Positions 1 to 61,250 of a stretch of 64,000 nt of DNA are shown in pieces. The stretch is from a virus. The DNA lies in the IMG/VR virus record IMGVR_UViG_3300037264_003623, positions 45,084 to 109,083 of that record; one strand, given 5' to 3'. The notes under the pieces are model-generated. The model was not told the origin of the DNA. It did no database searches and saw nothing but the letters and a program-made list of their open reading frames with translations. The translations under genes were made by a program, and so were the position numbers. How positions within the stretch are numbered: the first letter of the stretch is position 1; every line of letters starts with the position of its first letter.

Positions 1-78
1 GACTATTTGTCGAAGGCTCGAACATGGAAGAGCACCTGGGATGACAGTAGTGCAGCCAAGAGGCTCTACGAGGAGTAG
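1..78 (+). CDS. 3' end of a probable HipA/PI3-PI4K-like kinase paralog (partial)
   Basis: Frame 1 reads DYLSKARTWKSTWDDSSAAKRLYEE*; D-x-L-x5-W aligns with the C-termini of the two complete kinases (DVLKALGGW, REMKGLTEW) and it precedes the same small partner gene. Confidence 0.4.
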   Translation, partial: DYLSKARTWKSTWDDSSAAKRLYEE

Positions 79-98
79 AGCGGGTCAGGAGGAGAAAC

Positions 99-416
99 AT
101 GCTCATCGGGATGAGGGTTCGGAAGGACACGGATAAGGGCGAGGCTACCGTGTTCGAGTACCGGATGGGCCAGAATGGCAGGGTGGCCCTTACGGTCGGG
201 GATCCGAACGAGATCGTCTCGGAGATCACGCTGGGGTCGGGGGACAACACGATGATCGAGGACATGGGCGGGTCATACGGGGTGAGGATGCCCCCGTTCG
301 CGAAGGGGGCCGAGAAGACATACACCCCCGCCGACGGGGTGAGCTTCATCCTTGCGCTCCTCGTCCAGTTCAGCAGGAACAACGGCTACTCGTGGGCGGA
401 GCCGATCCTCTCATGA
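99..416 (+). CDS. small kinase-associated protein (putative immunity), paralog of 1603..1923
   Basis: RBS AGGAG; LIG.R...D.D.G....FEYR and TPADGVSFILALL..GY..AEP shared with 1603..1923. Confidence 0.75.
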   Translation: MLIGMRVRKDTDKGEATVFEYRMGQNGRVALTVGDPNEIVSEITLGSGDNTMIEDMGGSYGVRMPPFAKGAEKTYTPADGVSFILALLVQFSRNNGYSWAEPILS

Positions 417-1606
417 AGACGTTCTACTCCAGGAAGTTCGCGAGGTTCATGGGTTCCATCCTGGCGAAGGCCACATGGGACCCGGATCTCCACCCGAGGA
501 GCGAGGGCGGGAAGTTCTCCAGGACCGAGGGAGTCTCTGAGGAGAGGCGGGTCGCGGAGAGGCTCATGGGGACCTCGGCGGATCAGCTTGAGGCGGAGGC
601 ACGGGAGACCGAGCGGGAGGCTTCCGCGCTGAGGGCGATGGGGAAGGGCGAGAAGGCCGCGATGGCCGACGCCGTGGCGAGGGACCTGATGGAGAGGGCG
701 AAACTGGCGAGGGAGCCGGTCAGGGTGTTCAGGCCGGGATCGGAGCCGAGGAGGCCCGCCCCGCCGATAGATCCCACGAGGCATCCGCAGGAGTCCGTGA
801 GGGGGAGGGCAGAGACGATGAGAAAAGCCTCGGGGAAGCCTGAGGCTTTCATCATGAACACGCGCAGGGTCATGGGGGGCAAGGGAGAGTGCCACCGAGT
901 CCTCTTCGACGACGGGACCAGGGCCGCCTACAAGCCGACGGCGGGGTCCGTCCTTGTGCAGATGGAGAAGCAGGGCCGGGGTGAGGAGATCACGATCGAC
1001 CCGAAGATCCCGGAATCGAAGCGCGAACGGGCCGTCTTCGATCTCAGCGCGATGGCCGGGTTCGACGTGGTGCCCCCGGTCGAGCTCGTGGACTACGATG
1101 GGGTGGGGTCCCCCGGGGGCGGGCACGCTATGGCATGGGTGGACGGGCAGGAGGCCATTGACATCGAGGACCAGTACTACAAGGACATCTCCGCGAACCA
1201 TCCCGACCTTCACCGGATTGCGGCGCTCGACTTCATCACGGGCAATGTAGACCGGCACCAGGGGAACTTCATGAGGGGGAAGGACGGGCGCTGGTACGCG
1301 ATCGACAATGGCCTCTGCTTCACCAGGGACATGGAGCTCGGGATGTCGTGGTCCGATGTCATGCGGAAGCTCATGATGCACGTCACGCCGCCGGAGGTGC
1401 GGGCGGAGATCGCCTCGATCGACAAGGACGCTATGGGCGGAATCATGAAGGAGGCGGGCTTCGACGCCGTGGACATCAAGGCCGCGCAGACGAGGCTGGA
1501 TGTGCTCAAGGCCTTGGGCGGGTGGGGGACGGAGGGGCAAATGTACGGGGCGGCCGAGGACGCCTACTTCCAGGCGGGTGGGCGCAGGCGGCCAGGGAGG
1601 GAATGA
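413..1606 (+). CDS. HipA/PI3-PI4K-like kinase with N-terminal LAK|ATWDPDLHPRSEGGKF tag
   Basis: ATGA overlap start; motifs AAYKP, RERAVFDL, VVPPVEL, LDFITGNVDRHQGN, YAIDNGLCF. Confidence 0.85.
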   Translation: MKTFYSRKFARFMGSILAKATWDPDLHPRSEGGKFSRTEGVSEERRVAERLMGTSADQLEAEARETEREASALRAMGKGEKAAMADAVARDLMERAKLAREPVRVFRPGSEPRRPAPPIDPTRHPQESVRGRAETMRKASGKPEAFIMNTRRVMGGKGECHRVLFDDGTRAAYKPTAGSVLVQMEKQGRGEEITIDPKIPESKRERAVFDLSAMAGFDVVPPVELVDYDGVGSPGGGHAMAWVDGQEAIDIEDQYYKDISANHPDLHRIAALDFITGNVDRHQGNFMRGKDGRWYAIDNGLCFTRDMELGMSWSDVMRKLMMHVTPPEVRAEIASIDKDAMGGIMKEAGFDAVDIKAAQTRLDVLKALGGWGTEGQMYGAAEDAYFQAGGRRRPGRE

Positions 1607-1923
1607 TCGTGCTCATTGGGGTAAGATGGGTGAGGGACGTGGACACCGGGCGGGATGTGTCGTTCGAGTACAGGCTGGACCCGAGGACCGGCAAGGCTGT
1701 CCAGGTCGCGGGGCCCGCGAGGGCGAACGACGAGGTGATCCTCTCCCCGTGGGATGGGGTGATGGGCCCCGAGATCGCCAAGTATCACGGGATGGATTTC
1801 AAGCCGGTTCCGAAGGGCGGGAGGAGGCTGACCCCGGACGACGGGGTTGACTTCCTTCTCGCCGTTCTCGTCAAGTACGCGAGGAACACCGGCTACGGCA
1901 GGGTCGAGCCGATCAGCCGATAG
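1603..1923 (+). CDS. small kinase-associated protein (putative immunity)
   Basis: RBS GGAGG, ATGA overlap with the kinase; LTPDDGVDFLLAVL..GYGRVEP. Confidence 0.75.
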   Translation: MIVLIGVRWVRDVDTGRDVSFEYRLDPRTGKAVQVAGPARANDEVILSPWDGVMGPEIAKYHGMDFKPVPKGGRRLTPDDGVDFLLAVLVKYARNTGYGRVEPISR

Positions 1924-39729: not shown

Positions 39730-42700
39730 GGTCCCGAAGCCGGACATGGCGGCGCTCCGGAACGACCTGACCTACCTCGCCCGCCTCGACGGCGAGATCT
39801 CGGGGCGGATCAAGTCTCAGGACCCGAGGACGTATGGCCTTCCTGACCTCCTCCGACCCAAGGAGGACGGTGAGACGGAGGAGCAGCTTGTCGATCGGCA
39901 GAACCGGGAGATCAAGGACCTGATCGAGAAGCAGCTCTGGGTCCTGAAGGACGCGAGAAGGCTCGCGATCAAGCTCTCGCCCCCGATGGTCGACTTCATC
40001 GCCACGATGTTCTACCGGCGGGCGAACCTCGCGATCCTGTGGAAGGGGCGCGGCTCCGGCGGGACCCTGTGCGCGGCCATCCTCGTCTGGCTCTGCCTCG
40101 TCTACCACCGGATGTCGTTCACCAGCATGGCCGGGTGCCTCCTGCCGGGCACGCTCGTCTCCACAAGGAGGAGGGGGTGGGTGCCGGTGGAGGACGTGTC
40201 TGATGATGATGAGGTGGTGGGGCGGGACGGGGTGGTCCGCAGGGTAGTCTCGAAGACCTCGAAGGAGTGGGACGGTCCGATCACTAAGTTGGAGCCCCAC
40301 GGTTTCGACGGGAACTTCTTCACCTCTGACCACCGAATCTGGGTCCTTCGTGATGCGGTCGAAGAGGATAAGCGCGGGCATCTTGTTGGGCAGGATATTC
40401 GGCGGTGGGACACCATGTCTCCGGAATGGGTCCCGTGCGGAGAGGTCACGAGGCGGGACGTGTTTGTCCTCCCGAGGCCGAAGCGGACGGGCGTCCTGCT
40501 GCCGTCCCTGATGGTGTCGACCGGCGTCGGGGGCAAGGGGGAGAAGGTGGAGGTGCCTTGGACGCCGGATCTCTGCCGATTCATCGGGTACTGGCTTGCC
40601 GAGGGTAGCGTCTATCGACTCAAGGATGGGGGTCGATTTGTTCGGTTCGATGTGGGGAAGCGGGATCAGTGGCTTGATGACCTTCAGGATCTGATCGTGC
40701 GGTTGTTCGGCAGGAAGCCTTCCTACGATGAGCCGGGGGGGGATCTGACACTTGAGGCGAGGGTGCGGTTCGGGTCGAAGGATGTGGCCCAGTTCCTGGA
40801 GGACAACTTCGGGACCGGGGCGGTCGGAAAGCGCATCCCGTGGGAGATGGTGGTGGGTCTCGACGACGAGTGCGCGATGGCCCTACTCGCCGGTTTCCTT
40901 CGGGGAGATGGGGCCGTGGACATGACGAGCCGAGGGGGGCTCGACGTGTCTCTTTATACGGTCTCCCCTGCCCTCTCGTCCGGGATCTACTGGCTGTCTT
41001 TGCGCCTTGGCCTGGTCCCGTCGCTGGGGATCTCGAAGCCGAAGAATCGCAGCGGCTTTCACAAGGTTCACGACGGGTGGAGGATGCGGTACGGGTCCAT
41101 CGACGCCGATCGTCTTCTGGAGGAGGCGTTCGGTTGGCGCTCTCAGAAGGAGAGGGTTTCGAGGCAGCGTAGGGTGTGGGTCTCCGAGGACCGGGTGTAC
41201 GTCGGCGTGAGGGACGTGAAGCACTCGACCTATCAGGGCGAGGTGTGGGACCTTGAAGTCGAGGGGGACCCGTCGTTCTCCGTTCCGATGATGGAGGTTC
41301 ACAACTCCACCGAGCAGGCTAAGCTGATCTACCAGTACACCAAGTCCTTCTGGGAGTGCTTCCCGGTCCTGTCGGAGTCGCTCCTTGAGGTGGACCCCCT
41401 CCAGACCGAGACCAGGCTGAAGAACGGGGTCATCCTCAAGATCATCAGCGCGTCGGAGAAGCAGACACGCGGCAAGCACAACCCCGGGTTCATCGTTGAC
41501 GAGTCCTGCCAGTCGTCGCAGAACGTGGACTACCTGATCCAGGCCGCCATGCAGGGCTCGATGTCCGAGCCCAACCACATGGTGGTGGTGCTCTCGACCT
41601 TCCACTACCCGATTGGTCTGTTCCAGGAGCTGTGGGACTACGCCGAGGAGCGCGGGTTCAAGCGGTTCAACTGGGACTGCGTCCTGCCCGGAACGTGGAT
41701 CATCACTGCCAGGGGCCTCATCAAGATCGAGGAGGTGGTGGCGGGGGATCTCGTCCTTGCCGAGAACGGCAGGTTCGAGACGGTGGAGAGGGCGTGGTCG
41801 TCGCAGGTCTCGGGCGGGGCTGTCCGAATCTTTCCGTATGGATGGACCGAGGGGATCGAGACTACACCAGACCATCGTTTCAAGGTTCGTAGGGATGGCC
41901 GGGACGATTGGGTCGAGGCGTCGAAGATCCGCGAGGGGGACGATCTTGTTTTCCCGCGTCCGCAGAGGGCGGGGGTTTCGGTCGATCATCTGGGGTCGCA
42001 GATCTCGCCGGACTTCGCCCGTTTTCTCGGGTACTGGTACGGGGACGGGTGGCTTGATGGGAACCGGGTCGGCATCTCGTTCGGAGATCCCGAGAAGTTC
42101 AAGGAGGACTACCTGTCGCTCGTGGGCGGGCTGTTCAAGGCCGACGTTCGTCTGAGGCATAGGGAGCCCAACGAGCAGGGCAGGTTCGACAATGGGCCGC
42201 TCGCTGACTGGATGAGGACGGTTGGGTATCGGGGCGGGGAGAAGCATGTCCCGATCGAGATGGTCCTTGGGATGTCGGACGACGCGCTTCGGGAGTTCGT
42301 GACCGGGATGCTCAGGACGGATGGGTGCGTGACGTTGGCGAACGGGGTGCCGGTCGTGAAGTTCACCCAGGTCTCCTCAAGCGTGACGTGCGCCGTGTTT
42401 CTTGCGTGCGCCAGGCTTGGGGTGTTCATGGCCGTGGACAGGAGGCGGCAGTCCACCTTTGTCATCGAGGGGAGGGAAGTATCGGGCCAGGACTGGTGGA
42501 TGCTTCGGTCGGGGGGGAGGGACACGGATCGGCTCATGGGGTGGCTCGGGGAGTCTACGGATAGGGTTATGAGGAATGGGCAGCACTCCCTGGATGGGGA
42601 CGTGTATCTTACGCGGGTGAGGAAGGTCGAGCGGAGAGAGTACGCCGGACTCGTATTCGATCTGGCGGTCAAGGACGTCCACTCGTTCTCGATGCCCTGG

Positions 42701-45079
42701 GCGGTGGCCCACAACTGTTACGACTCGATGTCCCCCTGCAACGAGGGGCTGCTGACCGCCACGGAAGGAGACCCGGACGCCCTGGAATTCTGTCGGACGC
42801 AGTGCCCGCTGACGGAGAAGCGGTCGAACCTCGACGCCGAAGGCAACCAGGATGGGTGGAAATACATCGGGTGCGGCGGGAAGGCACGGCACTCCGAGGG
42901 GTTCCAGACCAGGGCCAACATGATCCTGGCGAAGAAGATGAACCGGGGGACGGACGTCTTCGAGAACGAGTACGAGAACAACCGGCCCAAGTGGATGCAG
43001 CCGATCTACAACCCCGAGCTCGTCGACCAGATTCTCGTGCCCGAGACGTGGCCGCTGCCATCGGCCTCGGACGCGGAGGCCCCTGACGTCGTGGCGGGTA
43101 GGGTCATGGGTGATAGCGGGTTCGAGATCGTCGAGAAGTCGGTGGGGATCGACTGGGGGTTGGAGGGGCAGACCGCTCTGGTCCTGGCGGCCCTGATTCG
43201 GTTCCATCGTTCGAGGCCGGTGGTGCCCTCCAAGGGTCTCCCGGATGGACCGCCGGTCGACTGGTGCATCGGGATCCTGGAATCCGAGTTCCTGTCGGGG
43301 AAGCTCACGTCCGAGGCCATTAAGGTCCTCATGATGTGGCAGGAGATGTACGGGGAGAACAACTTCTTCGTCTACGGCGACGCGAGCCACCCATTCAACA
43401 ACCTGGAGGTCGAGCAGGCCGGGTTCAACACCAACAACGTGCAGTTCGCCAAGTGGAAGGACTATGGGGTGGGGAACTGCATCAAGTATCTCGTGACGCC
43501 GGGCAAGCTGTTCATCAGGGAGAACCTGCACACCCTCCTGGATCAGATGAAGCGGTACAGGAGGGACAAGTTCGGGAGGCCGATTAAGAAGGACGACCAC
43601 GGTCCTGACGCATGGATGTCCTATCTCGATGCCAAGACGAGAGTTATAACACGTTCGGGATGGACCCCGGTGGGAAGGCTGGGTGTGGGGGTTGAAGTTC
43701 TGACGCATGCCGGAAGGTTTCGTCCGATCGTCAGGTATGAGCCCGCCCGCTACACGAGAGGGAGTCTTGTGGAGGTGAACTTTGCGGGTCAGACGCATCC
43801 GGTCGATGCCCATCGAGTGACTCTTGAACATCCGTTCCAGCTTGATGATGGTTCATGGGTTGAGGCTGAGAACCTGAAGTCGGGGATGAGGGTCCGGTGT
43901 CTGGCCTCTCGATGTGCTAGGTGCGGGATGAAGATCCCCTGGTCGCGCAAGTTTTGTGACGGGTGCGTAGGGAAGGGACGTAACGTGAGATGGAAAAATC
44001 CTGGGGAGCGCGAGCGGGTAGAGGCCGAAAAGAAGGCGGAGGCTCTCCGATCCGAATACGCGACGGGAGCGCGAGACGCGGCCACGAACGCAAGGGCTGC
44101 GACAGCGGCTCGGGCCGACATGATCCGGTCGAACCCTGGGGAGAGAGAGAAGGTCCGAGAACATCTGAGAGCGATTCTTCCGCTGGTGAATACGCCCGAG
44201 AAGAGGGTACGGCAGTCACATCTGATGAAGATGCTTCACGCCAGGGAGGGATTCTTTGATCATCTTCGTACCCTTGAAGGGAGGGAGAATGCCCGTCAGC
44301 GGGTCATCGCACGGATGCTTGCTGATCGTCAGATTCCCTTCAACTGCCGTTTGAGGCACTTCACCGACATCGAGCGGGAGATGTTCGACTCGTTCGTGAG
44401 GGCGGGATTCGAGCCGGTTCATAATCTTCGGGTTGGACGATGGTTTCTTGACGTTGCTCTCCCGGAGTTGAAGGTCGCGGTGGAGTGCGACGGGGGAAAC
44501 TGGCACAACTCGAAGCAGGCTCGGGAGAGGGACGCCAAGAAGGACGCCTACTTGAGGGGACACGGATGGGAGGTGTTCCGGTTTTCAGGGAAACGGATCA
44601 AGGACGACGTGGACGGGTGCCGGGACGATGTTCTGCGGGTTGCGGCCAACCACGAGGGTCTCTACGAGTTCACTTCGATCGAGGTCGTCTCGGTGAAGAT
44701 CGTCGAGATGAAACGGCCACGGACGGCGTACCACTTTGAGGTGGAGGAGGACCGGAGCTACGTGGCCCGTGGGATCGTCTCCCATAACTGCTCGATGCTC
44801 CACTACCGGTTCGAGGAGAGGTTCCACGAGGTGTACGACATCGAGGCGGCCCCGCCGAAGGCCGCTTCCAGCGCGATGCCCATCCCCGCCCCCGTGGCGG
44901 GGGCGTTCGGGGTTGCCCCAGTCACCTGTTCGCCCGACTTCGGGGGGGATTCCTTCTCCCAGCCGGTCCTGTTCGGCGGCGTCCAGGCCCCTGCGATGGA
45001 TCGTCCGGCTGGTTCTCCTATTGACACAAGGGGCAAATCACGGAAGACTGGTGGTAACGGTTCCGTGGTCGTCATCTGA
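39707..45079 (+). CDS. terL: terminase large subunit with three inteins (about 664 aa after splicing)
   Basis: KGRGSGGT, STEQA, FIVDE, LSTF, GIDWG, YGDAS, KKDDHGPDA. Confidence 0.9.
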   Translation: MVSKPKTKVPKPDMAALRNDLTYLARLDGEISGRIKSQDPRTYGLPDLLRPKEDGETEEQLVDRQNREIKDLIEKQLWVLKDARRLAIKLSPPMVDFIATMFYRRANLAILWKGRGSGGTLCAAILVWLCLVYHRMSFTSMAGCLLPGTLVSTRRRGWVPVEDVSDDDEVVGRDGVVRRVVSKTSKEWDGPITKLEPHGFDGNFFTSDHRIWVLRDAVEEDKRGHLVGQDIRRWDTMSPEWVPCGEVTRRDVFVLPRPKRTGVLLPSLMVSTGVGGKGEKVEVPWTPDLCRFIGYWLAEGSVYRLKDGGRFVRFDVGKRDQWLDDLQDLIVRLFGRKPSYDEPGGDLTLEARVRFGSKDVAQFLEDNFGTGAVGKRIPWEMVVGLDDECAMALLAGFLRGDGAVDMTSRGGLDVSLYTVSPALSSGIYWLSLRLGLVPSLGISKPKNRSGFHKVHDGWRMRYGSIDADRLLEEAFGWRSQKERVSRQRRVWVSEDRVYVGVRDVKHSTYQGEVWDLEVEGDPSFSVPMMEVHNSTEQAKLIYQYTKSFWECFPVLSESLLEVDPLQTETRLKNGVILKIISASEKQTRGKHNPGFIVDESCQSSQNVDYLIQAAMQGSMSEPNHMVVVLSTFHYPIGLFQELWDYAEERGFKRFNWDCVLPGTWIITARGLIKIEEVVAGDLVLAENGRFETVERAWSSQVSGGAVRIFPYGWTEGIETTPDHRFKVRRDGRDDWVEASKIREGDDLVFPRPQRAGVSVDHLGSQISPDFARFLGYWYGDGWLDGNRVGISFGDPEKFKEDYLSLVGGLFKADVRLRHREPNEQGRFDNGPLADWMRTVGYRGGEKHVPIEMVLGMSDDALREFVTGMLRTDGCVTLANGVPVVKFTQVSSSVTCAVFLACARLGVFMAVDRRRQSTFVIEGREVSGQDWWMLRSGGRDTDRLMGWLGESTDRVMRNGQHSLDGDVYLTRVRKVERREYAGLVFDLAVKDVHSFSMPWAVAHNCYDSMSPCNEGLLTATEGDPDALEFCRTQCPLTEKRSNLDAEGNQDGWKYIGCGGKARHSEGFQTRANMILAKKMNRGTDVFENEYENNRPKWMQPIYNPELVDQILVPETWPLPSASDAEAPDVVAGRVMGDSGFEIVEKSVGIDWGLEGQTALVLAALIRFHRSRPVVPSKGLPDGPPVDWCIGILESEFLSGKLTSEAIKVLMMWQEMYGENNFFVYGDASHPFNNLEVEQAGFNTNNVQFAKWKDYGVGNCIKYLVTPGKLFIRENLHTLLDQMKRYRRDKFGRPIKKDDHGPDAWMSYLDAKTRVITRSGWTPVGRLGVGVEVLTHAGRFRPIVRYEPARYTRGSLVEVNFAGQTHPVDAHRVTLEHPFQLDDGSWVEAENLKSGMRVRCLASRCARCGMKIPWSRKFCDGCVGKGRNVRWKNPGERERVEAEKKAEALRSEYATGARDAATNARAATAARADMIRSNPGEREKVREHLRAILPLVNTPEKRVRQSHLMKMLHAREGFFDHLRTLEGRENARQRVIARMLADRQIPFNCRLRHFTDIEREMFDSFVRAGFEPVHNLRVGRWFLDVALPELKVAVECDGGNWHNSKQARERDAKKDAYLRGHGWEVFRFSGKRIKDDVDGCRDDVLRVAANHEGLYEFTSIEVVSVKIVEMKRPRTAYHFEVEEDRSYVARGIVSHNCSMLHYRFEERFHEVYDIEAAPPKAASSAMPIPAPVAGAFGVAPVTCSPDFGGDSFSQPVLFGGVQAPAMDRPAGSPIDTRGKSRKTGGNGSVVVI
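40136..41305 (+). mobile_element. intein 1 in terL, LAGLIDADG
   Basis: G|CLLPGT..TSDH..FIGYWLAEG..LAGFLRGDG..VHN|S. Confidence 0.92.
41678..42715 (+). mobile_element. intein 2 in terL, LAGLIDADG
   Basis: D|CVLPGT..TPDH..FLGYWYGDG..VTGMLRTDG..AHN|C. Confidence 0.92.
43619..44788 (+). mobile_element. intein 3 in terL, Ser1, DUF559/Vsr-like endonuclease
   Basis: M|SYLDAKT..TLEH..LDVAL..AVECDG..WH..GWEVFRF..SHN|C. Confidence 0.85.
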
Positions 45080-45096
45080 TCCGAAGGAGAACAGCG

Positions 45097-45393
45097 ATGA
45101 AGAACGTGTACGTTTCGTTCCCTCAGATGGGGGTGTCGGGCCCCGAGGCCGATTTCCTGGAGCCGATCGCCGAGGCGCTCGCCGACGCGGTCGCCGAGAG
45201 ATCGTTCACCATGTTCTTCCGCGACCGGGTCGGCGCGGTCCGGGTCCTCCTGGAGGACGCGGACAATCGCGACGACGCCGCCCTCGCGGTCGCCACAGGC
45301 GTCAACGCCATCACGGGAGGGACCTCCTTCAAGGCCGTCGAGATCGACTCGACGGGCACGAGGACCGAGCTCACCGACCCCGTCGTCCCGTAA
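45097..45393 (+). CDS. hypothetical protein
   Basis: RBS AAGGAG. Confidence 0.7.
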   Translation: MKNVYVSFPQMGVSGPEADFLEPIAEALADAVAERSFTMFFRDRVGAVRVLLEDADNRDDAALAVATGVNAITGGTSFKAVEIDSTGTRTELTDPVVP

Positions 45394-49000: not shown

Positions 49001-49588
49001 ATGGCCCAGAGCCATGTCTACAAGGTGATCCCCGCGTCAAAGGCGGCGGAGGACGAGGCCGCCCTGAACGCTTTCGCGAAGGAAGGCTGGAGTCTCCTCG
49101 GGGGCACCGGCGGGAACCTCTACCTCGTGAAGGCGTTGGCCCCCCATGAGACGGGGGGAAGGGTCGACCCTGATGTCAAGGTCGCCAAGGTTTGTGCGAA
49201 CTGCGGCTCCTTCGAGACCGTGAAGGACACGGACGGGGTGGGTCGATGCCCCGAATGGAATCTCCTGGTGGAGGCATCCGGAGGGTGCGGGAAGTTCAAG
49301 ACGAGGGGCATGACCGAGAAGTCCATCCCGGACGAGGTCAGCGCATGGCACTGGACGCCGAGGACGGAGATTGGCGAGAAGCGGATCGAGGCGATCACGA
49401 CCCAGGGGTCGGGGGTCGCCTCCCCGGAGCACAAGCACCGGGTCATGGTGATCCGCGCCAAGGATGGCTCCGTCGTGAGGGGAAAGACCGACGTTGTGAA
49501 TGGACACGACCACCTCATCAAGTTTATGGGGATGGTCGAGGAGGCGGACGGGCACGGTCACACTTTCCTGCTTCCGCAGGAGTCATGA
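49001..49588 (+). CDS. multi-module protein (DUF4177-like start, CxxC, HxH repeats)
   Basis: YKVI..LNAFAKEGW; CANC; EHKH, NGHDH, DGHGH. Confidence 0.6.
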   Translation: MAQSHVYKVIPASKAAEDEAALNAFAKEGWSLLGGTGGNLYLVKALAPHETGGRVDPDVKVAKVCANCGSFETVKDTDGVGRCPEWNLLVEASGGCGKFKTRGMTEKSIPDEVSAWHWTPRTEIGEKRIEAITTQGSGVASPEHKHRVMVIRAKDGSVVRGKTDVVNGHDHLIKFMGMVEEADGHGHTFLLPQES

Positions 49589-49995: not shown

Positions 49996-50898
49996 ATGCA
50001 GACCCCCGAGTCTGCCAGGATGCGGCTCTTCGCGGGGGGCCTGCGGCCTGAGAACCAGGCTGTAGGCTCCCCGCTTGGTATTGGCCTTCTGTCCAAGATG
50101 AAGTCGTCCGCTGGAGGGCGTCAGTGGCCCCCGGCAGCCCCCAAGGAGGCCGACTTCACCGTGGTGGACATGATGTGCCAAGCTCTTCTTGGGGGCCAGG
50201 AGACCCTGGTCGAGCCCATCGGGGTGGGAATCCACAGGCCGTACAGGGTCGAGTTCCTCGACGGGATGGACTCCGGCCCGATGACCACGAGGCGGGCCGC
50301 CCTCAAGACGATCTACTGCCAGTACGAGAACAAGCGGTACTGCGCCTCTGTGGACTTGGATGTGACGGGGCCGGAGCGGGAGATCCTCTCCTTCGAGCTG
50401 GACCGCATGTTCGGGTTCGACCTGGTGCCCCCGACCGTGGGGAGAGAGATCGAGAAGGTCGGGTTTGGGAGCGTCCAGGCGTGGGTGGACTGTCCGACGG
50501 CGTGGCAGTGGATCGAGCGGGGCTACGACTACCGCGAGGACAAGACGAACCCCTGGCTCCACCGGCTTGCTGCCTTCGACTTCATCCGGGGTGAGATCGA
50601 TCGACACTCGAACAATTTCATCATGGACGACCAGCGGCGGGTCTACGCCATTGACAATGGGTACTCCATCGTGAAGGGTGACGACCGGACCTGGATGAGG
50701 TCGAGCGCGGGGAAGCACCTGGTGGGCACGCCCATCCATCCCGGAGTCATGGTGCAGATCCAGGCGATCGACGAGGGAAAGGCGTTCGACCTCGTGGACC
50801 GTGGCCGCTTCAAGAGCGGCGAGGCCGACGGGGTGGTCAAGCGGATCAGGGAGATGAAGGGTCTGACGGAATGGCGGAAGCTCGGCGATCTCTGGTAG
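49996..50898 (+). CDS. HipA/PI3-PI4K-like kinase
   Basis: REILSFELD, LVPPTV, GSVQAWV, FDFIRGEIDRHSNN, YAIDNGYS. Confidence 0.85.
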   Translation: MQTPESARMRLFAGGLRPENQAVGSPLGIGLLSKMKSSAGGRQWPPAAPKEADFTVVDMMCQALLGGQETLVEPIGVGIHRPYRVEFLDGMDSGPMTTRRAALKTIYCQYENKRYCASVDLDVTGPEREILSFELDRMFGFDLVPPTVGREIEKVGFGSVQAWVDCPTAWQWIERGYDYREDKTNPWLHRLAAFDFIRGEIDRHSNNFIMDDQRRVYAIDNGYSIVKGDDRTWMRSSAGKHLVGTPIHPGVMVQIQAIDEGKAFDLVDRGRFKSGEADGVVKRIREMKGLTEWRKLGDLW

Positions 50899-51482
50899 GG
50901 GCCCCGCAGCCGGTGGTGGCCGTCGACGTGGACGGGACCATCCTGTCCGAGAAGGACGGGTCCCTTCTTCCGGGTGCCCGCGAGGCGCTCGAACGCCTGA
51001 GAGCGACCGGGTGGCGGATCGTCATCTGGACGCACCGAGTGAACCTCGACGAGGTCAAGGCCGACCTGAAGAGGCACCGGATTCCCTACGACCACATCAA
51101 TGAGGACCCGGAGACGGACGCGAACGGGTTCTCGCGCAAGGTCTACTTCGACGCCACGGTGGACGACAAGGCGGTCCCGTTCGACGGGGATTGGGCCGCC
51201 GCGATCGGGGCATTGGAGAGGAAGAGGGCTGGGTGGAGGTCGGCGGGGGAGACGAAGGTTCGGATCATGGAGGCCAGGTCGGAATCTCCTCTGGCGGTCT
51301 TCTCACTCCGGGACGGGGTGGCCGTGGAGGAAACGGGTACCACGAGCAAGGCCGTCTTGGGTATGATAGAGGGCGGCATCGAGAACGAGGAAGGTCAGGT
51401 TGTTCGCCCCGGCGACGGGGAGATGTTCCTGAAGGCGCTCTCGGCCATGCGAGGCACGTACCTCTGGGCCGAGGCACGTTGA
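50871..51482 (+). CDS. HAD-family phosphatase fused to kinase-partner (immunity-like) domain
   Basis: VAVDVDGTI, IWT, K..FDATVDDKA; C-term VRPGDGEMFLKAL..GTYLWAE. Confidence 0.75.
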   Translation: MAEARRSLVGAPQPVVAVDVDGTILSEKDGSLLPGAREALERLRATGWRIVIWTHRVNLDEVKADLKRHRIPYDHINEDPETDANGFSRKVYFDATVDDKAVPFDGDWAAAIGALERKRAGWRSAGETKVRIMEARSESPLAVFSLRDGVAVEETGTTSKAVLGMIEGGIENEEGQVVRPGDGEMFLKALSAMRGTYLWAEAR

Positions 51483-57811: not shown

Positions 57812-58165
57812 ATGGGAGCTTCCGAAGGAACCTACCAGCCGGAACGCGGCTACAAGAATGGGGCGGGGGATTTCATTCTCGAAGCCGGGGCGCGATATCA
57901 CCCTTTCCGCCTCACCACGGTCCTCTGGCAGCGCAAGAACGTCAACGCCGTGGACATCCATCTGGAGATGCTCGACGGCGACAAGGTGTTCACCATCGAC
58001 GAGTATCTCACCTGCACGGACAAGCACTATTCCTGGCCGAACGAGGATAGCCCATGTCCTCTCGCTCTCGTGCCTTCGCAGAGGGTTAGGCTCCGAGTGA
58101 CCGGGGCCAATGCGACGGAGGAGCAGTCGGCGGTGGTCGTATGGGCGGAGCTGGGCGCGGTGTAG
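57812..58165 (+). CDS. putative virion protein
   Basis: RBS GGAG. Confidence 0.6.
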   Translation: MGASEGTYQPERGYKNGAGDFILEAGARYHPFRLTTVLWQRKNVNAVDIHLEMLDGDKVFTIDEYLTCTDKHYSWPNEDSPCPLALVPSQRVRLRVTGANATEEQSAVVVWAELGAV

Positions 58166-58184
58166 ACCCGGCTTGGGGGATTGC

Positions 58185-61100
58185 ATGGACGGCGACGGGA
58201 TCAGAGAAACGCTCGGGGAGGCGCTCATAGGCAAGGATGTTGGCCCCGATGCAATGGAGAACCTAGTGAAAGTTCTCCTGGTGGGCGGGGATGTCGAGGG
58301 GCAGAGTCCTCGGAAGAAGAAGAACAACGAGGAGCCGGAAGCGCCGCCCGCCACGAAACAGCTCGACGATTTTCAACAGATCGTCGGGGAGTTCGTCCCA
58401 CCCGCCTTCAACCCCGGTATATGGGCACAGACGCTCAAGGTCAACACTCGCCTCGCCAGGTGTATCCGGTCGTTCGCGAGGAACACCGTCGGCCTTGGGT
58501 GGAGCATCGAACCCATCCACCCGGTCACGGAGGAAATTCCGAAGCCGATCCGCGATCTCATCACGAAGCAGACCGAGGCGCTCCGGGAGTTCTTCAACCA
58601 CCCGAACCCGACGATACCGATGACCGAGATCTTCTACCTGGAGAAGGTGGATGAGGAGGCCACGGGCAACGGGTACATCGAGGTGGTGCGGAACAACTCG
58701 GGGAAGATCTCGAAGATGTTCCACGTCCCTTCCATCACAGTCCGGAGGAGGATCATCCGGGAGGAAGGGAAACCGGTGGTGTCGGGGTTCGTGCAGATCC
58801 GTGGGAGCCAGAAGAGATACTTCAAGGACTTTGGCGACAAGCGGGTGATGGATGCCTTCAATGGGAAGTACCATGACGGGAAGGAGCCGCTTTCGGCCGA
58901 TCATCGCGCCACCGAGATCCTCCATTTCCTGGTCTACGACCCGGGGAGCTCCTACTACGGGGCCCCGAGGTACATCCCGGCGGCGACCGCCATCGCGGGC
59001 AACCGTCAGGCCGCCATCCGCAACGTGAACTTCTTCGAGAATGACGCCGTCCCGCGCATGGCGCTCCTCATCTCCGGTGGGAAGCTCACCGGGGACTCCG
59101 TGCAGCAGATCGAGGACTTCGTTCGGGCCAAGGGCCGCGGCGTCGAGAACGCGCACAGGGTGATGATCGTCCAGGTGGAGCCGATCAAGGTCGGGTTCCA
59201 GCAGCAGAACAAGGTCATGGTGGACCTGAAGCCGCTGACCGTGGGCGTGACTGAGGACGCCAGCTTCTCCCAGTATCGGGAGGCGAACGACGAGGAGGTC
59301 CGCGAGATATTCGGGCTGGGCCAGATCTTCTTCAAGGCGGAGGGCGCGAACCGGGCGAACGCGCAGGTCTGTCTCGCGGGGCATGTCTCTATCCCCCTCC
59401 TCGATGGACGGGTTATCACGATGAGGGATCTCACCCGGGAATTCGCGGACGGGAGGAGGTTCGCCGTCTATTCCCTGGACCATGCGGGGAATGTCGTCTG
59501 CGGATGGGCTCACCATCCGAGGAAGACCAAAACCGACCAGACCTATGATGTCATTCTCGACTCGGGGCAGGCCGTCAGGGCCAACGCGAGTCATCCGTTC
59601 ATGCTCCGGGATGGGACGTATTGCCCCGTGGGCAACCTCAGGCCAGGGATGAGCCTGATGCCCTGGTATGTCCGGATGGGGTTCAAGAACGCCTTGAGCG
59701 TCGATGCGAGCACTTACGGATACTGGGAGATCTACAACCCTGCATCGGACAGATGGGATCTTGTGCATCGGAGGATCCTTGCGGGCGAGGGCGTGGACCT
59801 TCGCGGGATGTCGGTCCATCATCGAGACGGGAACCCGTTGAACAACGACTTGTCGAATCTGGACGCGCTAACGTGCTCGGAACATATCCGTCTGCACAAG
59901 GGCGGGAGGCGTGGTGAGTACTTCGGTTCGGATCACCCAGGGTTCAAGCACTTCGATTTCGATGAGGTGGTGAGGGTCGCGGCCACCTGCGGGGGTCGTC
60001 CGACGCTCCTGAGGCGACTGGAGATCGGCTCTTCGGCGCTCTACCGGGTCCTCAAGGAGCATGGACTGACCTATGAGGAGTTCCGATGGAAGCACATGGG
60101 GCCGAAGAATCGCCCTCCAGGGGGGAGGTCTCACACAAGGTTCCGGAAGGACGCGAGTTTTGAGCATCTCGCGGAGAAGGCACCGGGTTGCCGGTATCGG
60201 AGGGATTTGATCTCGGCCACGGGGTACTCCGCGAACCTCATCCTCCGTCTCATGAGGGAGCACGGGTACGACTACGCGAGATTCCGTGCGGAGTTCATGG
60301 GCATGAAAGCCCCCGTGATGAATCATCGTGTGGTGGCCGTGGTCCCCGCCGGGATCGAGGATGTGTTCGACCTCACGGTGGACCGGTATGAGAACTTCGC
60401 CGTGGCGGCGGGGGTGTTCGTCCACAATTCTCGCGAGATCACCAACGAGCAGGAGCTTGAGCCCGATCGCCTCTCGAAGGAGTACGTCATCAACCAGACC
60501 ATCGTGGAGGACATCCTCTTCCAGCAGATGGGCGTGACAGGCGATGAGTCTCCCGAGGAGGTCGAGGAGTTCCACAAGAACATCCACGTCCGGTTTCGGT
60601 TCGCCAGGCTTACGCTGACCGATCCGCTCGACGAGGCGCGGATGAACCAGATGTACGCCTCGCTCGGGGCAATCACCCCGAACGAACTCCGCGAGAGCCT
60701 CGGCAAGCCGCCGTTCCCGAAGGACTACTACTTCGCCGACAAGCCTTTGGCGATCGCGATGGCCGAGCTCACGGCAGGGCTCGCGCTTGCCATCGCCCAG
60801 AAGGACGAGGAGAAGATGCCGCAGGTCGCCGCCCCCGGTGCGCCTCCAGGGGTGGGGGTTCCAGGGGAAGAAGGCGTACCGCCGGAAGGGGTGCCTGCCG
60901 AGGAGGAACCTGAGGAAGAGGAAGCCCCGCCTGACGAGATGAATGGGCGGGAGCCGAAGGGCGTCGCTGGGATGCCTCCCATCCCTGGGGCACCGGGGGC
61001 GACACCGATCCCGGGGCTTCAGGTCATGCCGAAACCCGGTGGAGTCAAGAAGCCTTTGAGGAAACCCAGGCCCCCGAAACCAACACAGGGTATTGCATCT

Positions 61101-61250
61101 CTCCACGGGGTGCCGGTATCATCGAGGAAGACGATGGTTCCGAACCCACAGGCGTTCGGGATTCTTTCGGAGCTCATGAGCGACATCAGGAAGTTCGCCC
61201 TCGCGGGGGTGAGCTTTGCAAAGGGGGATGGAGATGGACAAGGTCGCTGA
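58185..61250 (+). CDS. portal protein with an intein
   Basis: DEEATGNGYIEVVRN, EILHF, YYGAP, FFENDAVP, ITPNELRE; upstream of protease and capsid. Confidence 0.9.
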   Translation: MDGDGIRETLGEALIGKDVGPDAMENLVKVLLVGGDVEGQSPRKKKNNEEPEAPPATKQLDDFQQIVGEFVPPAFNPGIWAQTLKVNTRLARCIRSFARNTVGLGWSIEPIHPVTEEIPKPIRDLITKQTEALREFFNHPNPTIPMTEIFYLEKVDEEATGNGYIEVVRNNSGKISKMFHVPSITVRRRIIREEGKPVVSGFVQIRGSQKRYFKDFGDKRVMDAFNGKYHDGKEPLSADHRATEILHFLVYDPGSSYYGAPRYIPAATAIAGNRQAAIRNVNFFENDAVPRMALLISGGKLTGDSVQQIEDFVRAKGRGVENAHRVMIVQVEPIKVGFQQQNKVMVDLKPLTVGVTEDASFSQYREANDEEVREIFGLGQIFFKAEGANRANAQVCLAGHVSIPLLDGRVITMRDLTREFADGRRFAVYSLDHAGNVVCGWAHHPRKTKTDQTYDVILDSGQAVRANASHPFMLRDGTYCPVGNLRPGMSLMPWYVRMGFKNALSVDASTYGYWEIYNPASDRWDLVHRRILAGEGVDLRGMSVHHRDGNPLNNDLSNLDALTCSEHIRLHKGGRRGEYFGSDHPGFKHFDFDEVVRVAATCGGRPTLLRRLEIGSSALYRVLKEHGLTYEEFRWKHMGPKNRPPGGRSHTRFRKDASFEHLAEKAPGCRYRRDLISATGYSANLILRLMREHGYDYARFRAEFMGMKAPVMNHRVVAVVPAGIEDVFDLTVDRYENFAVAAGVFVHNSREITNEQELEPDRLSKEYVINQTIVEDILFQQMGVTGDESPEEVEEFHKNIHVRFRFARLTLTDPLDEARMNQMYASLGAITPNELRESLGKPPFPKDYYFADKPLAIAMAELTAGLALAIAQKDEEKMPQVAAPGAPPGVGVPGEEGVPPEGVPAEEEPEEEEAPPDEMNGREPKGVAGMPPIPGAPGATPIPGLQVMPKPGGVKKPLRKPRPPKPTQGIASLHGVPVSSRKTMVPNPQAFGILSELMSDIRKFALAGVSFAKGDGDGQGR
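59370..60428 (+). mobile_element. intein in portal with HNH endonuclease
   Basis: V|CLAG..NASHPF..VHHRDGNPLNNDLSNL..FVHN|S. Confidence 0.9.

What the first reader, a model, noticed from the sequence alone, without database searches (positions are those of the whole stretch)
1..1923. Tandem kinase plus cognate small-partner cassettes (toxin-immunity-like)
Seen: the kinase at 413..1606 is translationally coupled to a 106-aa gene whose paralog (99..416) follows another gene end that aligns with the kinase C-terminus. Partners share P-x-DG-x2-F[IL]-x-A[LV]..GY..EP. The same motif follows the kinase at 49996. Knowledge: HipA-like kinases are toxins, and MuF polymorphic toxins are followed by immunity genes. 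Inference: at least three diversified kinase-partner pairs, one with a cargo tag, suggest injected kinases with dedicated inhibitors or activators.
Basis: partly seen in the sequence, partly recalled or inferred. Interest (0 to 1): 0.75.

Follow-up and report, generated by a model that had tools for sequence, protein, structure and literature searches.

The report
Phage kinases with dedicated small partners
An uncultured sediment phage carries three copies of a lipid-kinase-like (PI4K type II fold) kinase, each followed by its own copy of a rare ~100-residue partner domain (once fused to a phosphatase), a pairing kept in many related phages that looks like a kinase with a built-in regulator or antidote, though binding is untested.

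Summary
The window starts inside a 109-kb virus record. The gene ending at base 78 is a full kinase paralog (kinA). It is followed by partner 1 (99-416), kinB (413-1606) and partner 2 (1603-1923), joined by ATGA overlaps. The partners are paralogs (38% identity, E 9e-23) of a very rare family: about 21 small proteins among 1.8 billion representatives.

- **Linkage:** a partner gene lies directly after the kinase in six other independent contig lineages.
- **Third cassette:** it is real. The protein after kinC (49996-50898) is a HAD phosphatase whose C-terminal 80 residues are a shortened partner domain (hhalign 94%, E 1e-7). In IMG/VR, 10 of 10 phosphatases with that domain overlap a kinC-type kinase; 0 of 27 without it do.

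Best reading (about 45%): leader-tagged kinases, probably virion-delivered, each held in check by a docking partner. This is not a MuF toxin-immunity system. Binding and toxicity are untested.

The parts
1..78 (+). 3' end of kinA. It is a 613-aa leader-bearing PI4KII-like kinase paralog that starts upstream of the window at G000 43320.
   Evidence: tblastn in the own genome gives 45% identity to kinB residues 54-390, E 1.4e-72. It was recovered as P0009 with PF00454.
99..416 (+). Partner 1 (105 aa), a stand-alone partner-family protein. It is cognate to kinA by position and by co-diversification.
   Evidence: BLASTP against partner 2 gives E 9e-23. A GGAGGAG Shine-Dalgarno-like sequence lies 7 nt before the ATG. 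Its closest relative follows the kinA-like long kinase in L010 (44% identity).
413..1606 (+). kinB (397 aa). It has an N-terminal leader plus HPR..GKF tag, a helical hairpin, and a PI4KII-like kinase core (residues about 117-390).
1603..1923 (+). Partner 2 (106 aa; an alternative GTG start lies at 1609), a stand-alone partner-family protein cognate to kinB.
49996..50898 (+). kinC (300 aa), a third and more divergent kinase paralog with a leader-like N-terminus.
   Evidence: 31% identity to kinB residues 162-380, E 7e-22. The family HMM gives E 1.6e-85. TIGR03843 gives 4.6e-11. Orthologs sit in the same position in L017-L026.
50871..51482 (+). p3 (203 aa): a HAD-type phosphatase (residues about 15-118) fused to a C-terminal partner-like domain.
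   Evidence: phrog_1238 at 1.8e-19. NF046079 BT0820-family HAD phosphatase at 3.1e-9. HAD motif residues D19, D21, T54, K90, D98 and D99 are invariant. The gene overlaps the end of kinC by 28 nt.
51246..51479 (+). Partner-like C-terminal domain of p3 (residues about 126-203). It lacks the segment that corresponds to helix 1 and the following loop of the stand-alone partners.
   Evidence: hhalign of A7 against A3 gives probability 94.2%, E 1.1e-7 over 74 columns, with a gap of about 23 residues. Earlier comparisons with fewer sequences gave 88.7% and 67%. The partner HMM hits the ortholog in L026 directly, E 4e-5.

Best explanation
The phage encodes three paralogous atypical kinases of the type II PI4-kinase / Fam20 / HipA superfamily. 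Each is co-translated with its own copy of a small alpha/beta partner domain of about 100 residues.

The most likely mechanism is that the partner domain docks onto its cognate kinase and controls it while both are made in the infected cell. In cassettes A and B the partner would act as a stand-alone inhibitor, in the way the HipS antitoxin (a detached HipA N-subdomain 1) holds HipT inactive. In cassette C it would act as a tether that brings a HAD phosphatase to the kinase so that the phosphatase can reverse what the kinase does.

The kinases carry an N-terminal Lys-terminated leader and an HPR..G(K/R)F tag shared with neighbouring unrelated proteins. The partners do not carry them. The kinase is therefore probably loaded into the capsid and delivered to the next host free of its partner, where it would phosphorylate a host target that is still unknown.

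Shown: paralogy, gene overlap, conserved adjacency across lineages, co-diversification of kinase and partner types, the kinase fold with intact catalytic residues, and homology of the phosphatase tail to the partner.

Inferred: physical binding, inhibition rather than activation, virion packaging, and the substrate.
For: - **Conserved pairing.** A partner gene lies immediately after the kinase twice in G000, and in L010, L011, L012, L013 and L015/L016. Matching contig lengths suggest more pairs: P0003/P0005 at 1863 b, P0027/P0007 at 17066 b, and P0035/P0020 at 5317 b.
- **Motif specificity.** The motif is found three times in 109 kb, only after kinases, against 0.01 expected.
- **Co-diversification.** kinB-type short kinases are followed by partner-2-type proteins (kinase 57-58% identity, partner 50-60%). 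kinA-type long kinases are followed by partner-1-type proteins (50% / 44%).
- **Fused form.** hhalign 94.2%, E 1.1e-7. 10/10 HAD+domain loci have an overlapping upstream kinase against 0/27 HAD-only loci (Fisher 2.9e-9, or 9e-7 if only 6 lineages are counted).
- **Kinase core boundary.** The kinase core aligns to HipA from residue about 120 and to HipT from residue 9. Like HipT, it therefore lacks N-subdomain 1.
- **Precedent for gene order.** Kinase-then-HipS-like gene order exists in hipJS and hipIN modules (PMC8262856).
- **Leader distribution.** The leader is present on kinA, kinB and neighbouring proteins and absent from the partners.
Against: - There is no sequence support for the HipS link. 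No member of the family matches Pfam Couple_hipA. hhalign against the E. coli HipA N-terminus gives probability 0.2%. The PDB profile search finds nothing.
- The kinase is much closer to PI4KII than to HipA/HipT, and PI4KII has no such N-subdomain.
- L009 has a kinase 97% identical in DNA to that of L012 but no partner gene after it. The partner is therefore either dispensable or encoded elsewhere in that phage.
- No complex prediction or experiment was possible.
- Packaging is inferred only from shared leaders. No virion proteome exists.
- The phosphatase belongs to a family annotated mostly for small-molecule substrates.
Confidence: 0.45

Rival explanations
1. The partner is an integral activating or structural subunit of a split kinase rather than an inhibitor. 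It would play the role that N-subdomain 1 plays within intact HipA. It would travel with the kinase, and the complex would be the active enzyme.
For: The adjacency, gene overlap and co-diversification evidence is the same as for the best explanation. In HipA the equivalent domain is part of the active enzyme (PMC10627512). Overlapping ATGA start/stop codons favour equimolar synthesis.
Against: A nearly identical kinase exists without the partner gene downstream (L009). Partners lack the leader carried by the kinases. In the third cassette the domain has lost helix 1 and is fused to an enzyme of opposite activity, which fits antagonism better than activation.
Confidence: 0.2
2. The cassettes are small-molecule or lipid metabolic modules, not host-directed protein kinases. 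The kinase would phosphorylate a sugar, lipid or nucleotide-like substrate. The partner domain would bind or present the substrate. The HAD enzyme would act in the same pathway.
Against: The kinases share the N-terminal leader and HPR tag with clearly unrelated neighbouring proteins in a module next to head genes, which suggests cargo rather than metabolism. A distant homolog is fused to a MuF head protein (P0024). Three diversified kinase-partner pairs in one genome are unusual for a metabolic step.
Confidence: 0.15
3. This is a classical MuF-type polymorphic toxin with a downstream immunity protein. The kinase would be the toxin and the partner would protect sibling or lysogenic cells.
For: A small gene lies directly after a potentially toxic enzyme. 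One distant kinase homolog carries a Phage_Mu_F domain (P0024). Kinase domains fused to MuF are known in phages (PMC5512222).
Against: None of the three kinases here has a MuF domain. The variable element is not a C-terminal toxin swapped onto a constant N-terminus; instead whole kinase-partner pairs have duplicated and diverged. No integrase or lysogeny context was examined, and the record looks like a large lytic-type phage with its own replication genes (notes).
Confidence: 0.08
4. There is no functional interaction. The small gene would simply be a neighbour that was co-duplicated with the kinase.
For: No binding data exist. L009 shows that the kinase can occur without the partner downstream.
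Against: Adjacency is kept at 25-60% protein identity across at least seven lineages. The domain independently follows a third, divergent kinase type as a fusion, with perfect association.
Confidence: 0.07

Closest known systems
HipBST / hipJS / hipIN split Hip kinase toxin-antitoxin modules (HipT or HipJ kinase plus HipS antitoxin; PMC6581861, PMC8262856, PMC10627512, PMC9325769)
   Same: Both have a kinase core that lacks an N-terminal subdomain, together with a separately encoded protein of about 100 residues. The partner's strand/helix order matches HipS, and its best (weak) structural matches are HipS. Gene order is kinase then small gene, as in hipJS and hipIN. A variant exists in which the small domain is fused to another domain (HipN = HipS-like + HIRAN; here HAD + partner-like).
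Type II phosphatidylinositol 4-kinases (PI4KII-alpha/beta; PDB 4pla, 4hnd, 4wtv)
   Different: The phage proteins are much shorter and lack the palmitoylation and membrane-binding inserts. They carry a phage-type N-terminal leader. Most bacteria have no phosphoinositides, so the substrate is probably different.
MuF polymorphic toxins and polyvalent proteins of phages (PMC3482391, PMC5512222)
   Same: In both, phage proteins are thought to be packaged and delivered with the DNA and to carry enzymatic effector domains, including kinases. Small accessory genes lie next to them.
   Different: No MuF domain is present on these kinases. The kinases are single-effector proteins with a short leader rather than multidomain polyvalent proteins. 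The kinase clade described for polyvalent proteins is a truncated Ser/Thr/Tyr kinase, not a PI4KII-like one.
SCO1664 family (TIGR03843), actinobacterial PI3/4-kinase-like hypothetical proteins
   Same: This is the best NCBIfam hit for all three kinases (E 5.7e-15, 5.5e-12, 4.6e-11).
   Different: Scores are far below the family cut-off (55 against 172 bits), so the kinases are not members. The function of that family is unknown.

Membership tests
PI3/PI4-kinase-like superfamily (Pfam PF00454; type II PI4K fold) | Profile match above Pfam's gathering score | tested here: met
   kinB scores 32.5 bits against a cut-off of 27.1, E 1.1e-7. kinA (P0009) is precomputed as PF00454. kinC alone is below the cut-off (14.9 bits) but is linked through the family HMM at E 1.6e-85.
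PI3/PI4-kinase-like superfamily (Pfam PF00454; type II PI4K fold) | Catalytic loop DRHxxN, metal-binding IDNG (the DFG equivalent), and glycine-rich loop plus ATP-binding lysine | tested here: met
   D280, R281, H282, N285, D298 and G300 are invariant and K174 is nearly invariant in 21 sequences. The motifs align to those of PI4KII-alpha in hmmsearch.
PI3/PI4-kinase-like superfamily (Pfam PF00454; type II PI4K fold) | Bilobal kinase fold superposable on PI4KII | tested here: met
PI3/PI4-kinase-like superfamily (Pfam PF00454; type II PI4K fold) | Lipid (phosphatidylinositol) kinase activity | not testable with these tools
   No assay was possible. The host lipid composition is unknown.
Hip kinase toxin-antitoxin modules (HipA/HipT with HipS) | Kinase belongs to the HipA family by sequence (HipA_C) | tested here: not met
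Hip kinase toxin-antitoxin modules (HipA/HipT with HipS) | Small partner homologous to HipS / HipA N-subdomain 1 (Couple_hipA, PF13657) | tested here: inconclusive
Hip kinase toxin-antitoxin modules (HipA/HipT with HipS) | Partner neutralises a growth-inhibiting kinase | not testable with these tools
   This needs co-expression and toxicity assays.
Hip kinase toxin-antitoxin modules (HipA/HipT with HipS) | HTH regulator (HipB) in the operon | not tested
   The flanking genes seen are a Zn-ribbon protein, a SAM decarboxylase and leader-tagged proteins. No dedicated HTH search was made.
MuF polymorphic toxin-immunity systems | N-terminal Phage_Mu_F (PF04233) domain on the toxin protein | tested here: not met
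   No PF04233 hit on kinB or kinC, and only PF00454 is recorded for kinA (P0009). Only the distant homolog P0024 carries it.
MuF polymorphic toxin-immunity systems | Small cognate gene directly downstream of the toxin domain | tested here: met
   ATGA overlaps and short gaps. The arrangement is conserved in other loci.
HAD-superfamily phosphatases (for the N-terminal domain of p3) | Motif I DxDxT, motif II T/S, motif III K, and motif IV acidic pair, plus a profile match | tested here: met
   D19, D21, T23, T54, K90, D98 and D99 are invariant. phrog_1238 gives 1.8e-19 and NF046079 gives 3.1e-9. Pfam HAD models match below their cut-offs.

The most novel reading that the evidence does not exclude
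The partner is a true, highly diverged HipS / HipA-N-subdomain-1 homolog that regulates a PI4KII-like kinase. That would tie the Hip toxin kinases and the type II PI4-kinase lineage together through a shared detachable regulatory subdomain. Phages would use the arrangement as a safety catch for virion-delivered kinase effectors: the leader-tagged kinase is packaged, while the untagged inhibitor (or a tethered phosphatase) stays behind in the producer cell.
Probability: 0.25. Interest if true: 0.8.

Novelty: new variant of a known kind. Interest (0 to 1): 0.62.

Why it matters
Phage-delivered enzymes that rewire the host in the first seconds of infection are known for ADP-ribosyltransferases and RNA polymerases. 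They are poorly known for kinases. No phage kinase with its own dedicated regulator was found in the literature searched here.

This module offers a compact, testable system. It has three kinase-partner pairs in one genome, so cognate against non-cognate specificity can be tested. It has a natural variant in which the docking domain carries a phosphatase. Both the partner family and the fold are unannotated.

If the HipS resemblance is real, it would extend the split-kinase toxin-antitoxin principle from chromosomal Hip modules to a different kinase lineage and to virions.

Tried and rejected
Genomic context of most partner homologs could therefore not be fetched. Context came from the search for related loci instead.
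- **IMG/VR scans** with the partner, kinB, the kinase alignment and a partner sub-alignment found no relatives. Two alignments were too variable to scan.
- **INPHARED phages:** no tblastn match for partner or kinase.
- **BLASTP** of the partners against p3 found nothing. Only profile comparison showed the relationship.
- **Partner fold searches:** Foldseek against PDB, BFVD (best row is an uncharacterised Caudovirales protein, prob 0.84, E 0.13) and the VIA second look gave no significant match.
- **ESM Atlas** was uninformative because its own model of the partner is poor (pLDDT 0.44).
- **Sequence tests of the HipS idea were negative:** Pfam on all 25 members, Couple_hipA in the genome, hhalign against the E. 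coli HipA N-terminus, and a PDB profile search.
- **PADLOC:** no defence-system match.
- **Large proteins** hit by the partner profile (P0029, P0037, P0039) are repeat or Ig-like proteins and were judged spurious. P0032, at 5176 aa, was over the scan's size limit and was not checked.
- **Sequencing runs:** only the probable source sediment metagenome holds the stretch, and no RNA holder is listed.
- **Errors:** two calls failed on my own coordinate errors.
- **No complex prediction** could be run.

Full report
**Where the window lies.** The window is bases 45084-109083 of a 109,083-base linear IMG/VR virus record with about 75% estimated completeness. The only sequencing run that holds the stretch is a sediment metagenome, which is probably the source sample. 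G+C is about 64%, and real genes show the usual third-position G+C excess on the + strand.

**Checking the observation.**
- kinB (413-1606, 397 aa) matches PF00454 PI3_PI4_kinase above the curated cut-off.
- The stop codon of the 105-aa gene at 99-416 overlaps kinB's ATG in an ATGA. kinB's stop overlaps the ATG of the 106-aa gene at 1603-1923 in the same way.
- The two small proteins are 38% identical over 103 residues (E 9e-23).
- The open frame ending at base 78 belongs to a full kinase paralog, kinA. It is 45% identical to kinB over residues 54-390 (E 1.4e-72) and starts at G000 43320 with the same N-terminal leader.
- A third paralog, kinC, lies at 49996-50898 (E 7e-22 to kinB).
The expectation from codon-shuffled genomes is 0.01.

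**The kinase.**
- An AlphaFold2 model of kinB built on 21 homologs is confident over the catalytic core (mean pLDDT 85.7).
- The glycine-rich loop, the YKP lysine, DRHxxN and IDNG are conserved across the family, so the enzymes are probably active.
- 'HipA-like' is therefore true only at superfamily level.
- The best NCBIfam hit is the uncharacterised actinobacterial SCO1664 family, far below its cut-off.
- All three kinases begin with a leader of the form M-(R/K/Q)-T-x2-S...L-x-K. kinA and kinB follow it with an HPR-x3-G-K-F tag. Unrelated neighbouring proteins share these features here and in L009, L012 and L015. Earlier notes of this scan describe the same tags.

**The partner family.**
- A word-based search found only three relatives.
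- An exhaustive HMMER search of 1.84 billion representatives found 25 hits, of which about 21 are small proteins of 100-148 residues. Three of the four long hits were checked and are repeat or Ig-like proteins, judged spurious; the fourth (P0032, 5176 aa) was too long to scan.
- The family has no Pfam, PHROG, NCBIfam or PADLOC match.
- Its AlphaFold2 model is very confident (pLDDT 93.4, pTM 0.86). The element order is strands 4-13, 16-25, 32-36 and 45-47, helix 51-61, a short strand, helix 82-92, and a last strand 99-105.
- Foldseek finds nothing significant in PDB or BFVD.
- The published description of HipS is four N-terminal strands (1-52), a helical part (53-94) that contacts HipT, and a fifth strand (95-102) (PMC10627512). 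This is the same order and spacing as in the partner model.
- The kinase core aligns to HipA from about residue 120 and to HipT from residue 9, so like HipT it lacks that subdomain.
- I treat the HipS resemblance as a good lead, at roughly 40%, not a finding.

**Linkage elsewhere.** The kinase alignment recovered five metagenome loci and two genome-bin loci. Scanning them with HMMs of both families gave the following.

| Locus | Arrangement |
|---|---|
| L010 | long kinase, then partner |
| L011 | kinase, partner, second kinase |
| L012 | kinase, partner, leader-tagged protein |
| L013 | kinase, then partner |
| L015 / L016 | kinase, then partner |

- Synteny upstream (AAA+ ATPase, SAM decarboxylase, Zn-ribbon protein, leader-tagged proteins) is shared with this genome.
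- Kinase and partner types go together. Short kinases with the C-terminal YFQ-x-GGRRR tail are followed by partner-2-type proteins, and long kinA-type kinases by partner-1-type proteins. The cognate unit is therefore the kinase plus the gene after it.
- The one exception is L009. Its kinase is 97% identical in DNA to that of L012 up to the stop codon, and it is followed directly by a different leader-tagged gene.

**The third cassette.**
- The 203-aa protein that overlaps the end of kinC by 28 nt is a HAD-type phosphatase with all catalytic motifs. It also has a conserved C-terminal extension of about 80 residues.
- BLASTP sees no similarity to the partners.
- Profile comparison improves steadily as sequences are added: 67%, 88.7%, and 94.2% with E 1.1e-7 over 74 columns. 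The last alignment covers almost the whole partner except a segment of about 23 residues that corresponds to helix 1 and the following loop.
- In IMG/VR, all 10 loci (about 6 lineages) whose HAD protein has this extension carry a kinC-type kinase that overlaps its start. None of the 27 loci with HAD-only relatives has a kinase within 4 kb. Fisher's test gives 2.9e-9, or 9e-7 if lineages are counted. These loci are related to each other, so the p-values overstate independence.
- The partner domain therefore travels with this kinase superfamily in two architectures.

**Mechanism.** The simplest reading is that the partner domain is a kinase-docking module.
- Fusion to a phosphatase, the opposing activity, argues for antagonism.
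- The HipS-like topology points the same way, as does the precedent of kinase-then-HipS-like gene order in hipJS and hipIN (PMC8262856).
- The leader is present on the kinases and absent from the partners. This suggests that only the kinase is loaded into capsids, so it would be released from control in the next host. That step is an inference from shared tags, not shown.
- The rival readings are an activating subunit, a small-molecule pathway, true MuF toxin-immunity, and no interaction. They are weighed in the rival explanations of this report.
- The MuF reading fails its defining test here, because no MuF domain is present.

**Novelty.**
- Literature searches found split Hip kinases in bacteria. 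They also found kinase domains in phage polyvalent or MuF proteins, but of a different kinase clade.
- They found no description of PI4KII-like phage kinases with a dedicated partner.
- I class the finding as a new variant of a known kind: a kinase with a detachable small regulator, and a phage cargo effector with an accessory gene.

Noticed in passing
L009:1903-2751 and L012:776-1105: L009 and L012 share 97% DNA identity over the last 432 nt of the kinase gene and then diverge exactly at its stop codon. L012 continues with a partner gene. L009 continues with a leader-tagged protein that carries a P-loop-like GGVAAGKG motif. This suggests cassette shuffling at gene boundaries within the module.
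   Followed up: partly
window 58110-61250: The 1046-aa portal ORF matches portal families over residues 72-418 and HNH endonuclease families over residues 524-661. The portal gene may therefore carry an HNH insertion or fusion.
   Followed up: no
window 49001-49588: A 195-aa protein two genes upstream of kinC matches a PHROG annotated as protease (phrog_15223, E 2.8e-8). It could be relevant to removal of the leader.
   Followed up: no
G000 42656-43060 (upstream of the window); L010:2-391; L011:3-278: A SAM-decarboxylase-like gene (identified by eye from the pyruvoyl-type motif region) and a small Zn-ribbon gene precede the kinase in this genome and in L010 and L011. L015 keeps only the Zn-ribbon gene. 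This synteny is unexplained.
   Followed up: no
L015, L016 (contigs of 108,720 and 116,336 bases): Two near-identical phage-like contigs carry the same AAA+ ATPase / leader-protein / kinase-partner module. They are filed in MAG bins labelled Methanomicrobiales and Bathyarchaeia, which are probably binning artefacts rather than host assignments.
   Followed up: no
kinA (G000 43320-45161) and long homologs P0010-P0018: The long kinase forms contain an internal duplicated helical module (consensus roughly MRRRM-x-AI-x2-P-x-K-x2-NFA...MGYD..G-x-P) separated by proline-rich linkers. The short kinB group lacks it and instead ends in a conserved AAEDAYFQ-x-GGRRR tail.
   Followed up: no
window 413-1606, 49996-50898: All three kinases hit the actinobacterial SCO1664 family (TIGR03843) as their best NCBIfam model, well below its cut-off. 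That family's own gene neighbourhood may be worth comparing for a partner-like or phosphatase gene.
   Followed up: no
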